From the sequence record PV295200.1: a stretch of 64,000 bases of DNA; one strand, written 5' to 3'. This DNA is from Escherichia phage vB_Eco_BCPEco_001. The translations under genes and the position numbers were made by a program. This document shows positions 11,555-28,656 of this stretch, piece after piece. The notes under the pieces are model-generated. The model saw nothing but the letters and a program-made list of their open reading frames with translations, did not search any database and was not told the origin of the DNA. Every line of letters starts with the position of its first letter. Within the stretch, counting starts at the first letter, position 1.

Positions 11555-11941
11555 ATGGAAATCGGCAAAAAATACGAGTTAAATCCACATCGTATTAAAT
11601 CTTTCATTGATATTAGTTCATCAAATGCTAATATGGTCGGCATCATTCAAGAAAATGGTGGTTGGTTTGAAGTTAAATCAATATCAAGTTTAGATGGCTT
11701 TGATTATGTAACCGAAATCATTTGTGCTAATGGTGAAATCTATAATGATGATGGTATGGGTGATGATTATTTTGAACTTAGTGAAGAAGAGTTTTATTGT
11801 TTCCGCGAATATAAAGAACCGACTTCTGAAGAAGATGAAGTCAAAGACAAGGTTTATGGCGTAACAAAAATTCACTGCATTGTAGACGAAAACAATGTAG
11901 ATGAAATCATTGAACTTTTGCGAAAAACTTTCAAAAAGTAG
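11555..11941 (+). CDS. hypothetical protein (frd.x-region ORF)
   Basis: MEIGKKYELNPH...; ATG 11555 follows GAGGA; ORF track start 11540 also possible. Confidence 0.5.
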   Translation: MEIGKKYELNPHRIKSFIDISSSNANMVGIIQENGGWFEVKSISSLDGFDYVTEIICANGEIYNDDGMGDDYFELSEEEFYCFREYKEPTSEEDEVKDKVYGVTKIHCIVDENNVDEIIELLRKTFKK

Positions 11942-11975
11942 TTTACAACAGGGTAGTAGTGTGATACTATTACCC
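11941..11975 (+). promoter_or_regulatory. early promoter embedded in inverted repeat (PeSL-like)
   Basis: GTTTACA, 17 nt, TACTAT; arms GGGTAGTAGT / ACTATTACCC flank the -10. Confidence 0.45.
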
Positions 11976-12000
11976 TATCAAAATTAATGGAGAAAAGAAA

Positions 12001-12069
12001 ATGTTCGCACCTTATATTATGGCAGCAGTTATGTTGGTCTGTTTATACCTTTTGATTAAAGCTTGCTAA
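12001..12069 (+). CDS. possible 22-aa hydrophobic micropeptide
   Basis: MFAPYIMAAVMLVCLYLLIKAC, preceded by GGAGAAAAG; below ORF-track size cutoff. Confidence 0.25.
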   Translation: MFAPYIMAAVMLVCLYLLIKAC

Positions 12070-12080
12070 GGAGAATAAAA

Positions 12081-12323
12081 ATGAGATTACAACGTCAGAG
12101 CATCAAAGATTCAGAAGTTAGAGGTAAATGGTATTTTAATATCATCGGTAAAGATTCTGAGCTTGTTGAAAAAGCTGAACACCTTTTACGTGATATGGGG
12201 TGGGAAGATGAATGTGATGGATGTCCTCTTTATGAAGACGGAGAAAGCGCAGGATTCTGGATTTACCATTCTGACGTCGAGCAGTTTAAAGCTGATTGGA
12301 AAATTGTGAAAAAGTCTGTTTAA
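12081..12323 (+). CDS. hypothetical protein (frd.x-region ORF)
   Basis: ATG 12081 preceded by AAGGAGA; ORF track start 12063 is TTG. Confidence 0.5.
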   Translation: MRLQRQSIKDSEVRGKWYFNIIGKDSELVEKAEHLLRDMGWEDECDGCPLYEDGESAGFWIYHSDVEQFKADWKIVKKSV

Positions 12324-12333
12324 GGAAAATAAT

Positions 12334-12579
12334 ATGATTTTTGTATTTGAATTTATGAATGATGAATTCGATTATGCAATTTTTAACGCATTGCATAATC
12401 CTGATTTAAATGAATTTAATGAAATGTTTTCTGACGCTTTGAGTATGTCAGAAGAATACTGTGGAGAATGTCAACGTGTTTGTGTGACAGTCTTTGAAAA
12501 CAAAGAAAAGACCTATGAAGAATTATTCTTTGATGCTAATAAAGCCACTGAATGGTTTGTTGAAAGAGGTTTTGCGTAA
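12334..12579 (+). CDS. hypothetical protein (frd.x-region ORF)
   Basis: 81-aa ORF with AAGGAAA upstream; stop overlaps frd start (TAATG). Confidence 0.5.
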
Positions 12580-13160
12580 TGATTAAATTGGTATTCGCTT
12601 ATTCTCCAACTAAAACGGTCGAAGGCTTTAATGAATTAGCATTCGGTTTAGGTGATGGTTTACCATGGGGACGAATTAAAAAGGACCTCCAGAATTTTAA
12701 AGCTCGTACAGAAGGTACAATTTTGATTATGGGTGCTAAAACGTTCCAGTCATTATCTACATTACTTCCCGGTCGTAGCCATATTGTGGTGTGTGACCTT
12801 GCGCGTGATTATCCTGTAACTAAAGACGGCGATTTAGCACATTTCTATATTACATGGGAACAGTATATAACTTACATTTCTGGCGGCGAAATTCAAGTGT
12901 CAAGCCCTAACGCACCATTCGAGACTATGCTTGATCAGAATTCCAAAGTAAGTGTAATTGGCGGGCCTGCTCTGTTATATGCTGCGTTACCTTATGCGGA
13001 TGAAGTAGTTGTTTCTCGCATCGTTAAAAGGCATCGTGTTAATTCAACGGTTCAATTAGATGCAAGTTTTCTTGATGATATAAGCAAGCGTGAAATGGTT
13101 GAAACGCATTGGTATAAAATAGATGAAGTAACAACCCTTACGGAATCAGTATATAAATGA
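12579..13160 (+). CDS. frd: dihydrofolate reductase
   Basis: 193-aa [40 protein letters not shown]...; DHFR-like; same length as T4 Frd. Confidence 0.9.
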
Positions 13161-13180
13161 AATAACGCGTGGCGGAAAAT

Positions 13181-13528
13181 ATGAATTTTAATTATTACCC
13201 TATTCTATTAGAAAAAGACGTGAAACAACCTAAATGGCAGGGTCCTCAGTTTATTAAAGGTGTCTATCAATTAGTAGTTCCTAAAGACAAGATTTATAGC
13301 AGTTGTTTCACTGAATCTGCTTGCAGTATTTTCGGTAATAGTTCTCCGTATTGGAATTTTGACATAAAGCTGGATAGAAATATCGATATTTGGTTGAAAG
13401 CTATGGATATTGGTAATATTACGTTTGATGAGAATAATTATCATATTATTGGTCGCTTTTCCAAACGCGGTAAAGAATTGTATTTCACGCCTGAAATTGA
13501 AAGAAAATTTGATGCTAAACCGTATTGA
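13181..13528 (+). CDS. hypothetical protein; ORF occupying an frd-td intergenic insertion
   Basis: 115 aa from ATG 13181 (119 aa from GTG 13169); no recognisable motif; T4 frd and td overlap directly, so this ORF is extra. Confidence 0.45.
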   Translation: MNFNYYPILLEKDVKQPKWQGPQFIKGVYQLVVPKDKIYSSCFTESACSIFGNSSPYWNFDIKLDRNIDIWLKAMDIGNITFDENNYHIIGRFSKRGKELYFTPEIERKFDAKPY

Positions 13529-13573
13529 TTATTTAGCTTCATAAAATGTATTATAATTTATATAAGGTACTAA

Positions 13574-14122
13574 ATGAAACAATACCAATTTTTAATTAAA
13601 GATATCCTGGAAAATGGCTACGAAACCGATGACCGAACAGGCACAGGAACAATTGCTTTGTTCGGTACTAAATTACGCTGGGATTTAACTAAAGGTTTTC
13701 CTGCAGTAACAACTAAGAAGCTCGCCTGGAAAGCTTGCATTGCTGAGCTAATATGGTTTTTATCGGGAAGCACAAATGTCAATGATTTACGATTAATTCA
13801 GCATGATTCGTTAATCCAAGGCAAAACAGTCTGGGATGAAAATTACGAAAATCAAGCAAAAGATTTAGGATACCATAGCGGTGAACTTGGTCCAATTTAT
13901 GGAAAACAATGGCGCGATTTTGGCGGTGTAGACCAAATTATAGAAGTTGTTGATCGTATTAAAAAATTGCCAAATGATAGACGTCAAATTGTTTCAGCAT
14001 GGAATCCAGCTGAACTCAAGCAGATGGCATTACCGCCTTGTCATATGTTCTATCAGTTTAATGTGCGTAATGGCTATTTGGATTTGCAGTGGTATCAACG
14101 ATCAGTAGATGTTTTCTTGGGT
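13574..14122 (+). CDS. td: thymidylate synthase, exon 1
   Basis: MKQYQFLIKDILENGYETDDRTGTGT...QRSVDVFLG; in-frame TAA at 14123 is the first intron codon. Confidence 0.9.
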
Positions 14123-27485: not shown

Positions 27486-27511
27486 ATGCTTTAAGAATTA
27501 TTTGTTATTAT
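27484..27511 (+). promoter_or_regulatory. MotA-type middle promoter for gene 31
   Basis: AAATGCTTTA box, 12-nt gap, TATTAT, ~30 nt before ATG. Confidence 0.5.
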
Positions 27512-27541
27512 TAATTCATCTGTTAACAAAAAGGAAAAACG

Positions 27542-27877
27542 ATGTCTGAAGTACAACAGCTACCAATTCGTGCTGTCGGTGAATATGTTATTTTAGTTTC
27601 TGAACCTGCACAAGCCGGTGATGAAGAAGTTACAGAATCAGGACTTATTATTGGTAAACGTGTTCAAGGTGAAGTTCCTGAACTGTGTGTAGTTCACTCT
27701 GTCGGTCCTGATGTTCCTGAAGGTTTCTGCGAAGTTGGCGATTTGACTTCTCTTCCAGTTGGTCAAATTCGAAATGTTCCGCATCCTTTTGTAGCTCTGG
27801 GTCTTAAGCAGCCAAAAGAAATTAAACAAAAATTCGTTACTTGTCACTATAAAGCTATTCCATGTCTTTATAAGTGA
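27542..27877 (+). CDS. 31: head assembly co-chaperonin (GroES analogue) gp31
   Basis: 111-aa [27 protein letters not shown]...; same length as T4 gp31. Confidence 0.9.
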
Positions 27878-27885
27878 TATAAATA
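27878..27885 (+). promoter_or_regulatory. late promoter motif (TATAAATA) upstream of rIII
   Basis: Exact TATAAATA immediately after gene 31 stop. Confidence 0.4.
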
Positions 27886-28025
27886 ATAATATGAATTAGG
27901 TGTCGGAATAATAAGTTAACCGAACAATTCTATGTGGTAGTCTACAACTGAGAGATCTGTCGAAAGAAGATGAAATTCAGAAGAACGTGACTACCGAGTT
28001 TTAATCTCTAACGAGAATTTTTTAA

Positions 28026-28274
28026 ATGATTAAACAATTACAACACGCTCTTGAACTGCAACGAAACGCATGGAATAATGGTCACGAAAACTATGGCGCA
28101 TCTATTGATGTTGAAGCCGAAGCTCTTGAAATCCTGCGTTATTTCAAACATCTGAATCCTGCTCAAACTGCATTAGCTGCTGAGCTTCAGGAAAAAGATG
28201 AACTTAAATATGCTAAGCCTTTGGCTTCTGCTGCACGAAAAGCAGTTCGTCACTTTGTGGTAACACTGAAGTAA
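28026..28274 (+). CDS. rIII: rIII lysis inhibition accessory protein
   Basis: 82-aa ORF MIKQLQHALELQRNAWNNGHENYG...; same length and position as T4 rIII. Confidence 0.8.
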   Translation: MIKQLQHALELQRNAWNNGHENYGASIDVEAEALEILRYFKHLNPAQTALAAELQEKDELKYAKPLASAARKAVRHFVVTLK

Positions 28275-28393
28275 TTATGTTGACGAGGTTTATGGTTATC
28301 CTGTCGGTAAATATTCAAAACCTAAGTACCCCTTGAGGGCTTGCGCAGGCAATGCCAATAAGTCCTGCATTTTCATTTAAAAGAGAATTTATA

Positions 28394-28570
28394 ATGGCAA
28401 AACAAGCTAAAGCAAAGAAAGCAGTTGAAAAGAAAGTTGGTGATTCTAAACGCGCTGGTTACAAGCGTGGGTCTAACTCTCGTATCAATCAAACTGTTGA
28501 GAAGATCATGCGCCGAGCACGTGCGGTTCTTCGAGATGATGCTTCTCGTTTTGGTAAGCAGAAAGCATAA
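28394..28570 (+). CDS. hypothetical small basic protein
   Basis: MAKQAKAKKAVEKKVGDSKRAGYKRG...; ORF track start 28352 also possible; followed by a terminator. Confidence 0.4.
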   Translation: MAKQAKAKKAVEKKVGDSKRAGYKRGSNSRINQTVEKIMRRARAVLRDDASRFGKQKA

Positions 28571-28575
28571 GTTGA

Positions 28576-28604
28576 GGACTCCTTCGGGAGTCCTTTTTTA
28601 TTTT
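28576..28604 (+). terminator. rho-independent terminator
   Basis: GGACTCC-TTCG-GGAGTCC followed by TTTTTTATTTT. Confidence 0.7.
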
Positions 28605-28623
28605 CCAAAGATTGCACAAAGTT

Positions 28624-28656
28624 GTTTACAGTACGATTTCTTTGTGATAGTATTAT
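28624..28656 (+). promoter_or_regulatory. sigma70-type early promoter
   Basis: GTTTACA, spacer, TGATAGTATTAT; followed by GGGC-TTCG-GCCC hairpin and GAGGAAA. Confidence 0.45.

What the first reader, a model, noticed from the sequence alone, without database searches (positions are those of the whole stretch)
11941..28656. Further early promoters embedded in inverted repeats (PeSL-like), each preceding small unknown ORFs
At 11941-11975 (GTTTACA...TACTAT, arms GGGTAGTAGT/ACTATTACCC), 25207-25245 (GTTTAC...TATTAT, arms GGTAGAG/CTCTACC) and 28624-28656 (GTTTACA...TAGTATTAT, followed by a GGGC-TTCG-GCCC hairpin) the -10 element sits in or next to a stem-loop. Each starts a run of small, tightly packed ORFs of unknown function, the layout expected of shuffled accessory early-gene modules.
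Basis: partly seen in the sequence, partly recalled or inferred. Interest (0 to 1): 0.35.

Follow-up and report, generated by a model that had tools for sequence, protein, structure and literature searches.

The report
T4 early promoters inside RNA hairpins
Three strong start-of-infection promoters of a T4-type phage, two of them wrapped in a small hairpin-forming repeat, are real, but they are the same elements already present in phage T4 and already described as 'PeSL-like' promoter/stem-loop cassettes, so the finding is ordinary.

Summary
The window is a Tequatrovirus (T4-like phage). Its + strand is the early-transcription strand. All three sites are real T4-type early promoters (TTTAC-N15-TGN-TANNNT): 7 hits in the window, all on the + strand, against 0.37 expected. 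They are orthologues of T4 promoters between frd.2/frd.1, cd.3/cd.2 (named Pe133295 in the T4 record) and 30.9/30.8.

Sites 1 and 2 sit in 12-bp hairpins (-15.9 and -16.3 kcal/mol; z -2.8 and -4.5). The arms covary between phage genera. Site 3 has no significant repeat around its -10.

Across T4, about half of the early promoters carry such hairpins. The hairpins are G·U-rich on the sense strand. None was found at the seven T4 promoters that lie just downstream of a terminator. So they most likely fold only in read-through RNA.

Gene content differs next to all three sites: a 176-aa ORF inserted ATG-to-ATG at site 2, and a rare 30.8-30.7 deletion at site 3. Promoter-mediated shuffling is not demonstrated.

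This matches published PeSL / T-even promoter-stem-loop elements. The finding is already known and of low interest.

The parts
11941..11970 (+). Site 1 early promoter, orthologue of the T4 promoter between frd.2 and frd.1. -35 TTTACA 11942-11947, TGTGA extended -10, -10 TACTAT 11965-11970, predicted start near A11977. The stop codon of frd.2 (11939-11941) abuts the -35.
11950..11976 (+). Site 1 hairpin. The 5' arm lies in the spacer. The 3' arm is the -10 hexamer plus positions -6 to -1. 12 bp, 2 G.U pairs. It can form only in RNA read through from upstream.
   Evidence: arm variants in relatives
12003..12071 (+). Candidate 22-aa hydrophobic mini-ORF with a GGAG Shine-Dalgarno. It is the first reading frame after the site 1 promoter.
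   Evidence: the segment is absent in phages with promoter variants B and C
12081..12579 (+). frd.1 (DUF5417, 12081-12323) and an 81-aa ORF absent from T4 (12334-12579, phrog_3183). These are followed by frd.
25207..25236 (+). Site 2 early promoter, orthologue of T4 Pe133295 between cd.3 and cd.2. -10 TATTAT 25231-25236, predicted start near A25243.
25218..25245 (+). Site 2 hairpin. 12 bp, 3 G.U pairs, loop AUAU. It spans the extended -10 and the -10 and ends at about +3.
25267..25797 (+). 176-aa ORF of unknown function (phrog_3710), inserted exactly from ATG to ATG between the promoter/SD and cd.2. It is present in 302 of 723 related records and absent from T4 and T2.
28574..28595 (+). Intrinsic terminator after gene 30.9: 9-bp stem, UUCG loop, T-run. 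It is the stem-loop partner of the site 3 promoter.
28624..28653 (+). Site 3 early promoter, orthologue of the T4 promoter between 30.9 and 30.8. -10 TAGTAT 28648-28653, predicted start near A28660.
28677..28688 (+). GGGC-UUCG-GCCC hairpin. It is homologous to the T4 30.7/30.6 intercistronic hairpin. Here it lies in the 5' leader of 30.6, and its base is the junction of the 782-nt 30.8-30.7 deletion.
11159..11238 (+). Gene 32 terminator (11159-11177) plus an early promoter (11210-11238). This is a second 'terminator then promoter' unit without an embedded hairpin.
22211..22264 (+). Early promoter upstream of alc inside a 17-21 bp hairpin that includes the Shine-Dalgarno. It is 96% identical to 36792-36845.
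36792..36845 (+). Second copy of the same promoter/hairpin cassette, upstream of alt.-3.

Best explanation
The three sites are conserved sigma-70-dependent early promoters (Pe) of a T4-like phage. E. coli RNA polymerase fires them immediately after infection.

Sites 1 and 2 belong to a common T4 architecture. The promoter lies inside an inverted repeat whose 5' arm is in the -35/-10 spacer and whose 3' arm runs from the -10 to about +1 to +3. A transcript started at the promoter lacks the 5' arm and cannot fold. Only RNA that reads through from an upstream promoter forms the hairpin.

The hairpin is therefore an RNA-level intercistronic element. It marks and insulates the read-through message at a gene boundary that has no terminator. 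Inferred roles are a 3' stability barrier or attenuator for the upstream message, and, at sister promoters such as 22212 and 36793, masking of the Shine-Dalgarno.

Site 3 uses the alternative layout: a true intrinsic terminator, then the promoter, then a C(UUCG)G hairpin in the leader.

Shown here: promoter identity and orthology, the hairpins, their covariation and sense-strand bias, the exclusivity with terminators, and the neighbouring indels. Inferred: what the hairpin does to the RNA, and any role in recombination.
For: Identity.
- The window is 99.7% identical to a Salmonella Tequatrovirus and collinear with T4.
- The promoter motif gives 7 hits against 0.37 expected, all on the early strand.
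- The same promoters occur in T4, and one is named in the T4 record.

Hairpins.
- Sites 1 and 2 have z-scores of -2.8 and -4.5.
- In T4, duplex energy between a promoter's own spacer and its own downstream segment averages -8.9, against -5.45 for cross-promoter pairs. No permutation out of 20,000 reached the observed mean, and 10 of 31 promoters rank first.
- 60-nt folds at 33 Pe motifs average -12.9, against -8.15 for 1500 control windows (p 6e-5). 42% reach -15 or below, against 4.6% of controls.

RNA level.
- The sense strand folds better than the antisense strand, -12.9 against -9.7 (p 2e-4). This excess is larger than in controls (p 0.016).
- As DNA, the hairpins are worth only -5 to -7 kcal/mol.

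Covariation.
- Site 2 arms are GGTAGAG/CTCTACC in Tequatrovirus, GGTGGAG/CTCTACC in Mosigvirus, GGTAGGACT/AGTCCTACC in Dhakavirus and AGGGTTAT/ATAACCCT in Gelderlandvirus.
- 79% of cells are paired, against 31-57% when the partner is slid. Three pairs change on both sides.
- Site 1 arms are GGGTA/TACCC, GGGGTA/TACCCC and GGCTA/TAGCC.

Link to read-through.
- 0 of 7 T4 promoters with a terminator within 100 nt upstream have a strong embedded hairpin, against 15 of 26 without one (Fisher p 0.009).
- The window shows the same split. Promoters 11210 and 28625 follow terminators and have no embedded hairpin. Promoters 11942, 22212, 25208 and 36793 abut the upstream ORF and do have one.

Literature.
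- PeSLs are defined with the stem-loop in these positions, and one was shown to cut downstream lacZ expression like a strong terminator.
- T-even analogues based on T4 early promoters with AT-rich stem-loops are noted.
Against: - No transcript 5' or 3' ends were available, so initiation and RNA folding are inferred.
- The hairpins at sites 1 and 2 have no U-tract and were not called terminator-like. They do not cover the Shine-Dalgarno. Their effect on read-through RNA is therefore unknown.
- The inner 3-4 pairs come for free from the promoter consensus (GUG pairing with UAU).
- The hairpin is absent at the orthologous site 2 promoter in IME08 and TH15, so it is dispensable.
- The covariation rests on few independent lineages. 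Site 1 variants shift register, so no formal pair count was possible.
- The T4 promoter set was defined by motif, not by mapped starts.
- The -14 and -15 kcal/mol cut-offs were chosen after seeing the data.
Confidence: 0.8

Rival explanations
1. The promoter/stem-loop units act at the DNA level as preferred recombination sites. This is the PeSL model: homologous or targeted exchange, with mini-circles. Under this reading the repeats exist because they mediate insertion and deletion of the small ORFs next to them.
For: - Window-versus-T4 junctions fall 33 nt (25269) and 23 nt (28676) downstream of a -10, and 20 nt upstream of the 36793 promoter. That is 3 of about 17 junction points in zones that cover 2.6% of the region. 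By my own Poisson estimate this gives p of about 0.01 under a uniform null.
- The site 3 junction lies at the base of a GGGC...GCCC hairpin. That motif was reported at T4 deletion endpoints.
- The ORF content next to site 1 varies between 0 and 2 extra ORFs, with or without an 86-aa ORF and with or without the mini-ORF.
- A 54-nt promoter cassette is duplicated at 96% identity.
- The leader AAACAAATGAGGAAA recurs at several promoters within single genomes.
Against: - None of the indels is flanked by two promoter copies. The 176-aa ORF is bounded ATG to ATG and brings its own Shine-Dalgarno for cd.2.
- That ORF occurs at one locus only, at 90% identity or more, in all 302 records. This fits a single event followed by inheritance.
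- Seven of ten differences from T4 are nowhere near a promoter.
- If junctions are restricted to gene boundaries (about 1 in 8 carries a Pe), three hits is what chance gives.
- The three sites share only the roughly 30-nt consensus and are not in any long repeat family.
- The sense-strand G.U bias argues that the repeats are kept for RNA, not for DNA.
Confidence: 0.25
2. The inverted repeats at sites 1 and 2 are chance products or by-products of the promoter consensus and have no function of their own.
For: - The extended -10 and -10 consensus is partly self-complementary and supplies the top of both stems (pairs 24-33, 25-32 and 26-31 vary on one side only or not at all).
- Site 3 is not significant.
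- Some orthologues lack the hairpin.
Against: - The outer 7-9 pairs lie outside the consensus.
- Own-versus-cross promoter pairing was not matched by any of 20,000 permutations.
- Arms differ between genera while staying complementary in the same register.
- 42% of Pe regions fold at -15 or below, against 4.6% of controls.
Confidence: 0.08
3. The embedded hairpins are Rho-independent terminators or attenuators that stop upstream transcription at the promoter, as proposed for the G/C-rich PeSL stem-loops of RB49 and phi1.
For: - A PeSL stem-loop reduced downstream lacZ expression like rrnB T1.
- Embedded hairpins and upstream terminators are mutually exclusive in T4, as expected if one replaces the other.
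Against: - No T-run follows either hairpin (UAUCAAAAUU and AAAACAAAUG).
- Neither was returned by the terminator scan, which did find 11159-11177 and 28574-28595.
- The stems are A/U- and G.U-rich.
Confidence: 0.15
4. The hairpins gate translation. [quoted passage not shown]
For: - This geometry holds at 22212 and 36793 in the window.
- It holds at 7-10 T4 early promoters, where 3-4 bases of the Shine-Dalgarno are paired with the spacer arm.
- The late-promoter precedent is documented.
Against: At sites 1 and 2 the stem ends 13-14 nt and 8 nt upstream of the Shine-Dalgarno, and no SD base is paired. So this cannot be the role of the two hairpins in the finding.
Confidence: 0.1

Closest known systems
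Bacteriophage T4 early promoters (Pe): the T4 promoters at about 146.1 kb (frd.2/frd.1), 133.3 kb (Pe133295, cd.3/cd.2) and 130.3 kb (30.9/30.8)
   Same: The -35 GTTTAC, 17-nt spacer, TGn and -10 are the same. Position and flanking genes are the same. The sequence is identical or nearly identical, including both hairpins. The 'UP/-35/TGn/-10' make-up is as reviewed by Hinton 2010.
   Different: Nothing differs in the promoters themselves. Only the downstream cargo differs: a 176-aa ORF at site 2, loss of 30.8-30.7 at site 3, and an extra 81-aa ORF after frd.1.
PeSL (promoter-early stem-loop) cassettes of RB49/phi1 (Arbiol et al. 2010, PMC2839356) and of PST/T4 and nt-1/KVP40 (Comeau et al. 2014, PMC4122927)
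   Same: They are composite units: AT-rich region, early promoter, stem-loop, Shine-Dalgarno and start codon. The stem-loop may lie between or over the promoter boxes, or upstream. They sit in front of small ORFs that differ between close relatives.
   Different: The RB49 PeSLs have near-consensus TTGACA/TATAAT promoters and GGGG...CCCC stems. They are conserved over about 100 bp among many copies. Here the stems are A/U- and G.U-rich, each promoter has its own arm sequence, and the three sites share only the promoter consensus. For PST/T4 the 2014 paper places the stem-loops just upstream of the promoter, which fits site 3 but not sites 1 and 2. The authors call the T-even elements analogues, not homologues.
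T-even internal-protein (IP) locus promoter/stem-loop elements (Repoila et al. 1994, as summarised in Arbiol 2010)
   Same: They combine a T4-type early promoter with a weaker, AT-rich stem-loop of variable size, next to variable small genes. The T4 IP-locus promoters at 73938, 73571 and 65412 show the same embedded hairpins in my scan. The hairpin at 73938 closely resembles that of site 1.
   Different: The loci differ: frd, cd and gene 30 clusters rather than ipI-III. I could not read the 1994 paper itself.
Hairpins that sequester the ribosome-binding site and contain an internal promoter, in T4 genes e, soc, 49 and I-TevI
   Same: The promoter sits inside the structure, so long transcripts fold and promoter-proximal transcripts do not.
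   Different: Those cases use late promoters and pair the Shine-Dalgarno or AUG. The hairpins at sites 1 and 2 do not touch the Shine-Dalgarno. Only the 22212 and 36793 cassettes in this window do.
Regulatory region upstream of DNA ligase gene 30 in T4-type phages (Truncaite et al. 2006, Virology 344:378, cited in PMC9409239 and PMC1702504), and C(UUCG)G hairpins of T4 mRNAs
   Same: Site 3 has the layout I recall from that paper's abstract (own knowledge, paper not read): a rho-independent terminator, at least one early promoter and a conserved stem-loop. Both stem-loops at site 3 have UUCG loops. UUCG-loop intergenic structures in T4 transcripts are noted.
   Different: The window lacks the second early promoter (T4 129917) and genes 30.8 and 30.7, whose transcript carries a known RegB site. 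Only 24 of 1021 records, at most, share this arrangement.

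Membership tests
T4-type early promoter (Pe) | -35 GTTTAC(A/T), 17 +/- 1 nt spacer, TGn extended -10, and a -10 of form TAnnnT | tested here: met
   All three sites match TTTAC-N15-TGN-TANNNT. There are 7 hits in the window against 0.37 expected.
T4-type early promoter (Pe) | A/T-rich UP-like region upstream of the -35 | tested here: met
   The upstream sequences are aaaaactttcaaaaagtaG, caaagcaatttaataG and ccaaagattgcacaaagttG. They match the 'ttcacaaagttG'-type upstream consensus seen at most T4 hits. Judged by eye, not scored.
T4-type early promoter (Pe) | Intergenic position, on the strand of the early genes and upstream of a Shine-Dalgarno and start codon | tested here: met
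T4-type early promoter (Pe) | Orthology to a promoter recorded in T4 | tested here: met
   The same sequences occur at T4 146142, 133330 and 130309. The T4 record's note names Pe133295. For the other two I rely on my recollection of published T4 promoter lists, which were not held.
T4-type early promoter (Pe) | Initiation in vivo immediately after infection without phage protein synthesis | not testable with these tools
   No 5'-end data were found for these sites.
PeSL (Arbiol 2010 / Comeau 2014) | An early promoter with an adjacent sequence able to form a stable stem-loop, in one of five positions relative to the boxes | tested here: met
   At sites 1 and 2 the stem-loop overlaps the -10. 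At site 3 the stem-loop lies upstream at 28574-28595.
PeSL (Arbiol 2010 / Comeau 2014) | A repeated motif conserved over about 100 bp among many copies in one genome | tested here: not met
   The three sites are in no direct-repeat family of 24 nt or longer. Only 22211 and 36792 form one, of 54 nt. They share only the promoter consensus.
PeSL (Arbiol 2010 / Comeau 2014) | Location in front of small ORFs that differ between close relatives; contiguous with indels | tested here: met
   Site 2: 302 of 723 records carry the 176-aa ORF. Site 3: at most 24 of 1021 share the deletion. Site 1: variable ORFs on both sides. Statistical enrichment is not shown.
PeSL (Arbiol 2010 / Comeau 2014) | The stem-loop acts as a terminator or attenuator of upstream transcription | not testable with these tools
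   Indirect only. The site 1 and 2 hairpins have no U-tract. Embedded hairpins are mutually exclusive with upstream terminators in T4.
PeSL (Arbiol 2010 / Comeau 2014) | Recombination between neighbouring copies produces mini-circles and deletions | not testable with these tools
   This needs inverse PCR on infected cells. The indels seen are not bounded by two promoter copies.
Intrinsic (Rho-independent) terminator | A G+C-rich stem-loop followed directly by a U-run | tested here: not met
   Not met for the site 1 and 2 hairpins, which are absent from the scan. Met for 28574-28595 and 11159-11177.
RBS-sequestering hairpin with internal promoter (T4 e / soc / 49 / I-TevI type) | The Shine-Dalgarno and/or start codon is paired within the hairpin | tested here: not met
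   At sites 1 and 2, 0 SD bases are paired. The feature is met at 22212 and 36793.
RBS-sequestering hairpin with internal promoter (T4 e / soc / 49 / I-TevI type) | The promoter lies inside the structure, so proximal transcripts lack the 5' arm | tested here: met
   The 5' arms (11950-11961 and 25218-25229) lie upstream of the predicted starts (about 11977 and 25243).

The most novel reading that the evidence does not exclude
Promoter-embedded hairpins may be a general, RNA-level insulation device of T4 early transcription units. About half of the early promoters carry one. It folds only in read-through transcripts, is kept by selection on the sense strand, and is used instead of an upstream intrinsic terminator. 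It would create two functionally different mRNA isoforms for the downstream gene. In the long isoform the hairpin either masks the ribosome-binding site or, at sites 1 and 2, caps the upstream message.

This would extend the classic late-promoter trick of genes e, soc and 49 to the early class. It would also give the T-even 'PeSL-like' stem-loops a role in RNA rather than in recombination.
Probability: 0.3. Interest if true: 0.45.

Novelty: already known. Interest (0 to 1): 0.2.

Why it matters
For this window it matters little. The three promoters and their hairpins are the ones in T4 itself, and the promoter-plus-stem-loop cassette idea has been in print since 1994 and 2010.

What could matter is the general pattern that emerged while checking. 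T4 early promoters are embedded in sense-strand RNA hairpins far more often than chance allows, and none was seen at the seven T4 promoters that follow a terminator. If confirmed experimentally, that would explain how densely packed early genes with tandem strong promoters are kept independent of each other. It would also give phage engineers a rule for inserting or removing early-gene cassettes without disturbing the neighbours.

Tried and rejected
- **Generic sigma-70 and terminator scan.** The promoter count was no different from shuffles (83 against 79), so I used the T4-specific motif instead.
- **Rfam at gathering threshold, 10000-38000.** No family matched.
- **Pfam on the four window-specific ORFs.** Nothing. 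PHROGs gave only 'unknown function' families.
- **The search for related loci with frd.1.** Only 5 loci came back. I switched to annotated phage records and to a pattern scan of viral contigs.
- **Formal pair counting at site 1.** Abandoned. The GGCTA/TAGCC variant pairs in a register shifted by one column relative to the promoter-anchored alignment. Only the per-sequence folds are reported.
- **DNA cruciform or protein-binding palindrome.** Rejected as the main reading. The DNA hairpins are weak, and the pairing is G.U-biased toward the sense strand.
- **Deletion between direct repeats as the origin of the site 3 arrangement.** T4 has AATAAAATGA at both ends, but the window junction sequence does not match that product.
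- **Papers not held.** Miller 2003 (T4 genome review) and Repoila 1994. PST PeSL coordinates had no supplement text.
- **Experimental evidence.** No T4 transcription-start dataset covering these sites was found.

Full report
**What the window is**

The 18.5 kb around the finding is 99.7% identical to Salmonella phage vB_Sen_BCPSen_003. It is 93-98% identical to many Tequatroviruses, including RB3, T6 and PST. Translating T4 genes against it shows collinearity with T4 from gene 32 to alt.-3. The window's + strand is T4's early-transcription strand.

- Site 1 lies between frd.2 and frd.1.
- Site 2 lies between cd.3 and cd.2.
- Site 3 lies after 30.9.

**Checking the observation**

The quoted sequences are at the stated coordinates. 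A T4-specific early-promoter pattern (TTTAC-N15-TGN-TANNNT) hits the window seven times. All hits are on the + strand and intergenic, against 0.37 expected from shuffles. The hits are at 11210, 11942, 22212, 25208, 28625, 36793 and 52309. A generic sigma-70 scan has no discriminating power here.

Folding results:

| Site | Hairpin | Pairs | MFE (kcal/mol) | z | Shuffles folding as well |
|---|---|---|---|---|---|
| 1 | 11950-11976 | 12 bp | -15.9 | -2.8 | 2 of 200 |
| 2 | 25218-25245 | 12 bp | -16.3 | -4.5 | 0 of 200 |
| 3 (promoter region) | none significant | - | -16.9 | -0.8 | 44 of 200 |

At site 3 the GGGC-UUCG-GCCC hairpin is real (28677-28688), but it lies 24 nt after the -10, in the leader of 30.6. 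The structure actually adjacent to this promoter is an intrinsic terminator at 28574-28595, with a UUCG loop and a T-run.

The downstream 'runs of small unknown ORFs' exist, but they lead into well-known genes: frd, td, nrdA, nrdB; cd, 31, rIII; and ligase 30.

**Identity**

T4 carries the same promoters at 146142, 133330 and 130309, with the same two hairpins. The T4 RefSeq record contains a note on 'the early promoter Pe133295 between cd.2 and cd.3'. Other depositors annotate promoters at the site 1 and site 2 orthologues. So these are known T4 early promoters. Hinton's review describes the class as 'UP/-35/TGn/-10' promoters that outcompete host promoters.

**Are the inverted repeats more than chance?**

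I scanned the whole T4 genome for the motif. This gave 31-33 hits on the early strand.

- *Own versus cross pairing.* I paired each promoter's spacer segment with its own downstream segment, and with the downstream segments of the other promoters. Own pairs average -8.9 kcal/mol and cross pairs -5.45. No permutation out of 20,000 reached the observed mean. Ten of 31 promoters rank first against all others.
- *Against background.* Sixty-nt folds average -12.9 at promoters and -8.15 in 1500 control windows from the same strand and regions (p 6e-5). 42% of promoters reach -15 or below, against 4.6% of controls.

So roughly half of T4 early promoters are embedded in a specific inverted repeat. Sites 1 and 2 are two of them.

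**RNA or DNA?**

- The sense strand folds better than its complement, -12.9 against -9.7 (p 2e-4). Sense-strand stems hold 2-4 G.U pairs, while antisense folds hold 0-1.
- This excess exceeds that of control windows (p 0.016).
- As DNA, the two hairpins are worth only -5 to -7 kcal/mol.
- The two copies of the alc/alt.-3 cassette differ only by C-to-T changes in the 5' arm. These turn C-G pairs into U.G pairs.

This points to an RNA structure on the sense transcript. The 5' arm lies upstream of the predicted start, so only RNA that reads through from an upstream promoter can form it.

**Covariation**

At the site 2 orthologue the arms are:

| Lineage | 5' arm / 3' arm |
|---|---|
| Tequatrovirus | GGTAGAG / CTCTACC |
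| Mosigvirus | GGTGGAG / CTCTACC |
| Dhakavirus IME540 and two metagenomic relatives | GGTAGGACT / AGTCCTACC |
| Gelderlandvirus Melville | AGGGTTAT / ATAACCCT |

All are in the same register. IME08 and TH15 have no hairpin. On the 10-sequence alignment, 79% of cells pair, against 31-57% when the partner is slid. Three pairs change on both sides. Only 1 of 500 shuffles reaches the observed count of cells changed on both sides, and 8 of 500 reach the covariation score.

At site 1 the arms are GGGTA/TACCC, GGGGTA/TACCCC and GGCTA/TAGCC. A Mosigvirus version differs only by transitions that keep pairing. The GGCTA/TAGCC variant shifts register, so I report folds of -15 to -17.5 kcal/mol rather than a pair count. 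The number of independent events is small.

**Link to read-through**

In T4, none of the 7 promoters with an intrinsic terminator within 100 nt upstream has a strong embedded hairpin. Of the 26 without such a terminator, 15 do (Fisher p 0.009; rank test p 0.037). The cut-off was chosen after the fact.

The window shows the same split. Promoters 11210 and 28625 follow terminators and lack an embedded hairpin. Promoters 11942, 22212, 25208 and 36793 abut the upstream ORF and have one. This is what one expects if the hairpin acts on RNA arriving from upstream.

**What the hairpin does**

This part is inference.

- At 22212 and 36793, and at 7-10 T4 promoters, the 3' arm includes the Shine-Dalgarno. 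That copies the documented e/soc/49/I-TevI logic.
- At sites 1 and 2 the stem stops before the Shine-Dalgarno and has no U-tract. Masking and classical termination are therefore both unlikely there.
- A role as a stability barrier or boundary mark on the read-through message is my best guess.
- Arbiol et al. showed that one RB49 PeSL stem-loop lowers downstream lacZ expression like a strong terminator. That stem is G/C-rich, unlike these.

**Module shuffling**

Blast of the window against T4 gives about ten differences in 28 kb. Two junctions lie just after a promoter.

- *Site 2.* A 514-nt insert starts at the ATG 33 nt after the -10. It ends at the ATG of cd.2 and brings its own Shine-Dalgarno. 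It encodes a 176-aa protein of unknown function. The protein occurs in 302 of 723 related records, always at this locus and at 90% identity or more.
- *Site 3.* The window lacks 782 nt of T4: 30.8, the promoter at 129917, and 30.7. The junction is 23 nt after the -10, at the base of the GGGC hairpin. At most 24 of 1021 records share this arrangement. GGGC/GCCC motifs were reported at T4 deletion endpoints.
- *Site 1.* Relatives differ by an 86-aa ORF upstream, a 22-aa mini-ORF segment, and 0-2 ORFs after frd.1.

Even so, recombination at the promoters is not shown.

- No indel is flanked by two promoter copies.
- Most differences are far from any promoter.
- Three junctions within 60 nt of a promoter is unusual only under a uniform null (my own Poisson estimate, p about 0.01). 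It is not unusual if junctions are confined to gene boundaries.

**Comparison with the literature**

PeSLs were defined in RB49/phi1 as an AT-rich region, an early promoter, a stem-loop in any of five positions, and a Shine-Dalgarno with start codon. They lie in front of ORFans that differ between relatives. The concept was extended to PST/T4 and nt-1/KVP40. PST is 96.5% identical to this window.

The same authors note that T-even elements built on T4 early promoters, with weaker AT-rich stem-loops, were seen by Repoila et al. in 1994. They call these analogues, not homologues, of PeSLs. The three sites fit that description. They fail the 'about 100-bp repeated motif' criterion. The gene 30 upstream region has been studied experimentally (Truncaite et al. 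2006, cited; not read).

**Verdict**

The interpretation as PeSL-like early promoters is sound as a description. The elements are already known, and interest is low. The genome-wide pattern of sense-strand hairpins, and their absence at the terminator-preceded promoters, is the only part that may go beyond what is published. It needs transcript mapping and mutational tests.

Noticed in passing
window 22211-22264 and 36792-36845: A 54-nt direct repeat at 96% identity. It is an early promoter inside a 17-21 bp hairpin (-26 kcal/mol, z -5 to -6) whose 3' arm contains the Shine-Dalgarno of alc and of alt.-3. The only two differences are C-to-T changes in the 5' arm, which turn C-G pairs into U.G pairs.
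   Followed up: partly
T4 genome (L001-L005), 33 early-promoter motif hits: Strong promoter-embedded hairpins and an intrinsic terminator within 100 nt upstream are mutually exclusive: 0 of 7 against 15 of 26 (Fisher p 0.009). About 7-10 of the hairpins pair the Shine-Dalgarno of the next gene.
   Followed up: partly
window 12003-12071: A 22-aa hydrophobic mini-ORF (MFAPYIMAAVMLVCLYLLIKAC) with a GGAG Shine-Dalgarno lies between the site 1 promoter and frd.1. The same sequence is in T4, where no gene is annotated. The segment is absent from phages that carry the other promoter variants.
   Followed up: no
window 32644-36783: There are two full-length tandem alt (ADP-ribosyltransferase) paralogues, at 32644-34731 and 34735-36783. 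T4 has one alt plus the remnants alt.-1 and alt.-2.
   Followed up: no
window 18268-20592: The nrdB intron carries a full-length I-TevIII (19145-19954), which is truncated in T4. mobE and nrdB.1, which lie between nrdA and nrdB in T4, are absent.
   Followed up: no
window 13161-13573 and 23646-23958: Two further window-specific ORFs of unknown function. A 119-aa ORF (phrog_1928) separates frd from td, which overlap in T4. A 106-aa ORF (phrog_2364) lies between pseT.1 and pseT. Neither is next to an early promoter.
   Followed up: partly
window 28276/28277: T4 has 124 nt between rIII and 30.9 that the window lacks. The longest ORF here (28352-28570, 72 aa) starts upstream of the 59-aa T4 30.9.
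   Followed up: no
window 10000-38000: No Rfam family reached its gathering score, although the td and nrdB group I introns lie in this stretch. This is probably because each intron is interrupted by a homing-endonuclease ORF.
   Followed up: no
loci L024-L049 (viral contigs): The leader AAACAAATGAGGAAA follows several different early promoters within single T4-like genomes, up to 4 copies per genome. So promoter-plus-leader cassettes are repeated even where the spacer and hairpin arms differ.
   Followed up: partly
L013 20085-20590 (Mosigvirus LF82-16): The orthologues of the site 1 promoter region keep the hairpin although their -35 hexamers are degenerate (GTGTAC, GTATAC). This hints that the structure can outlive the promoter.
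   Followed up: no
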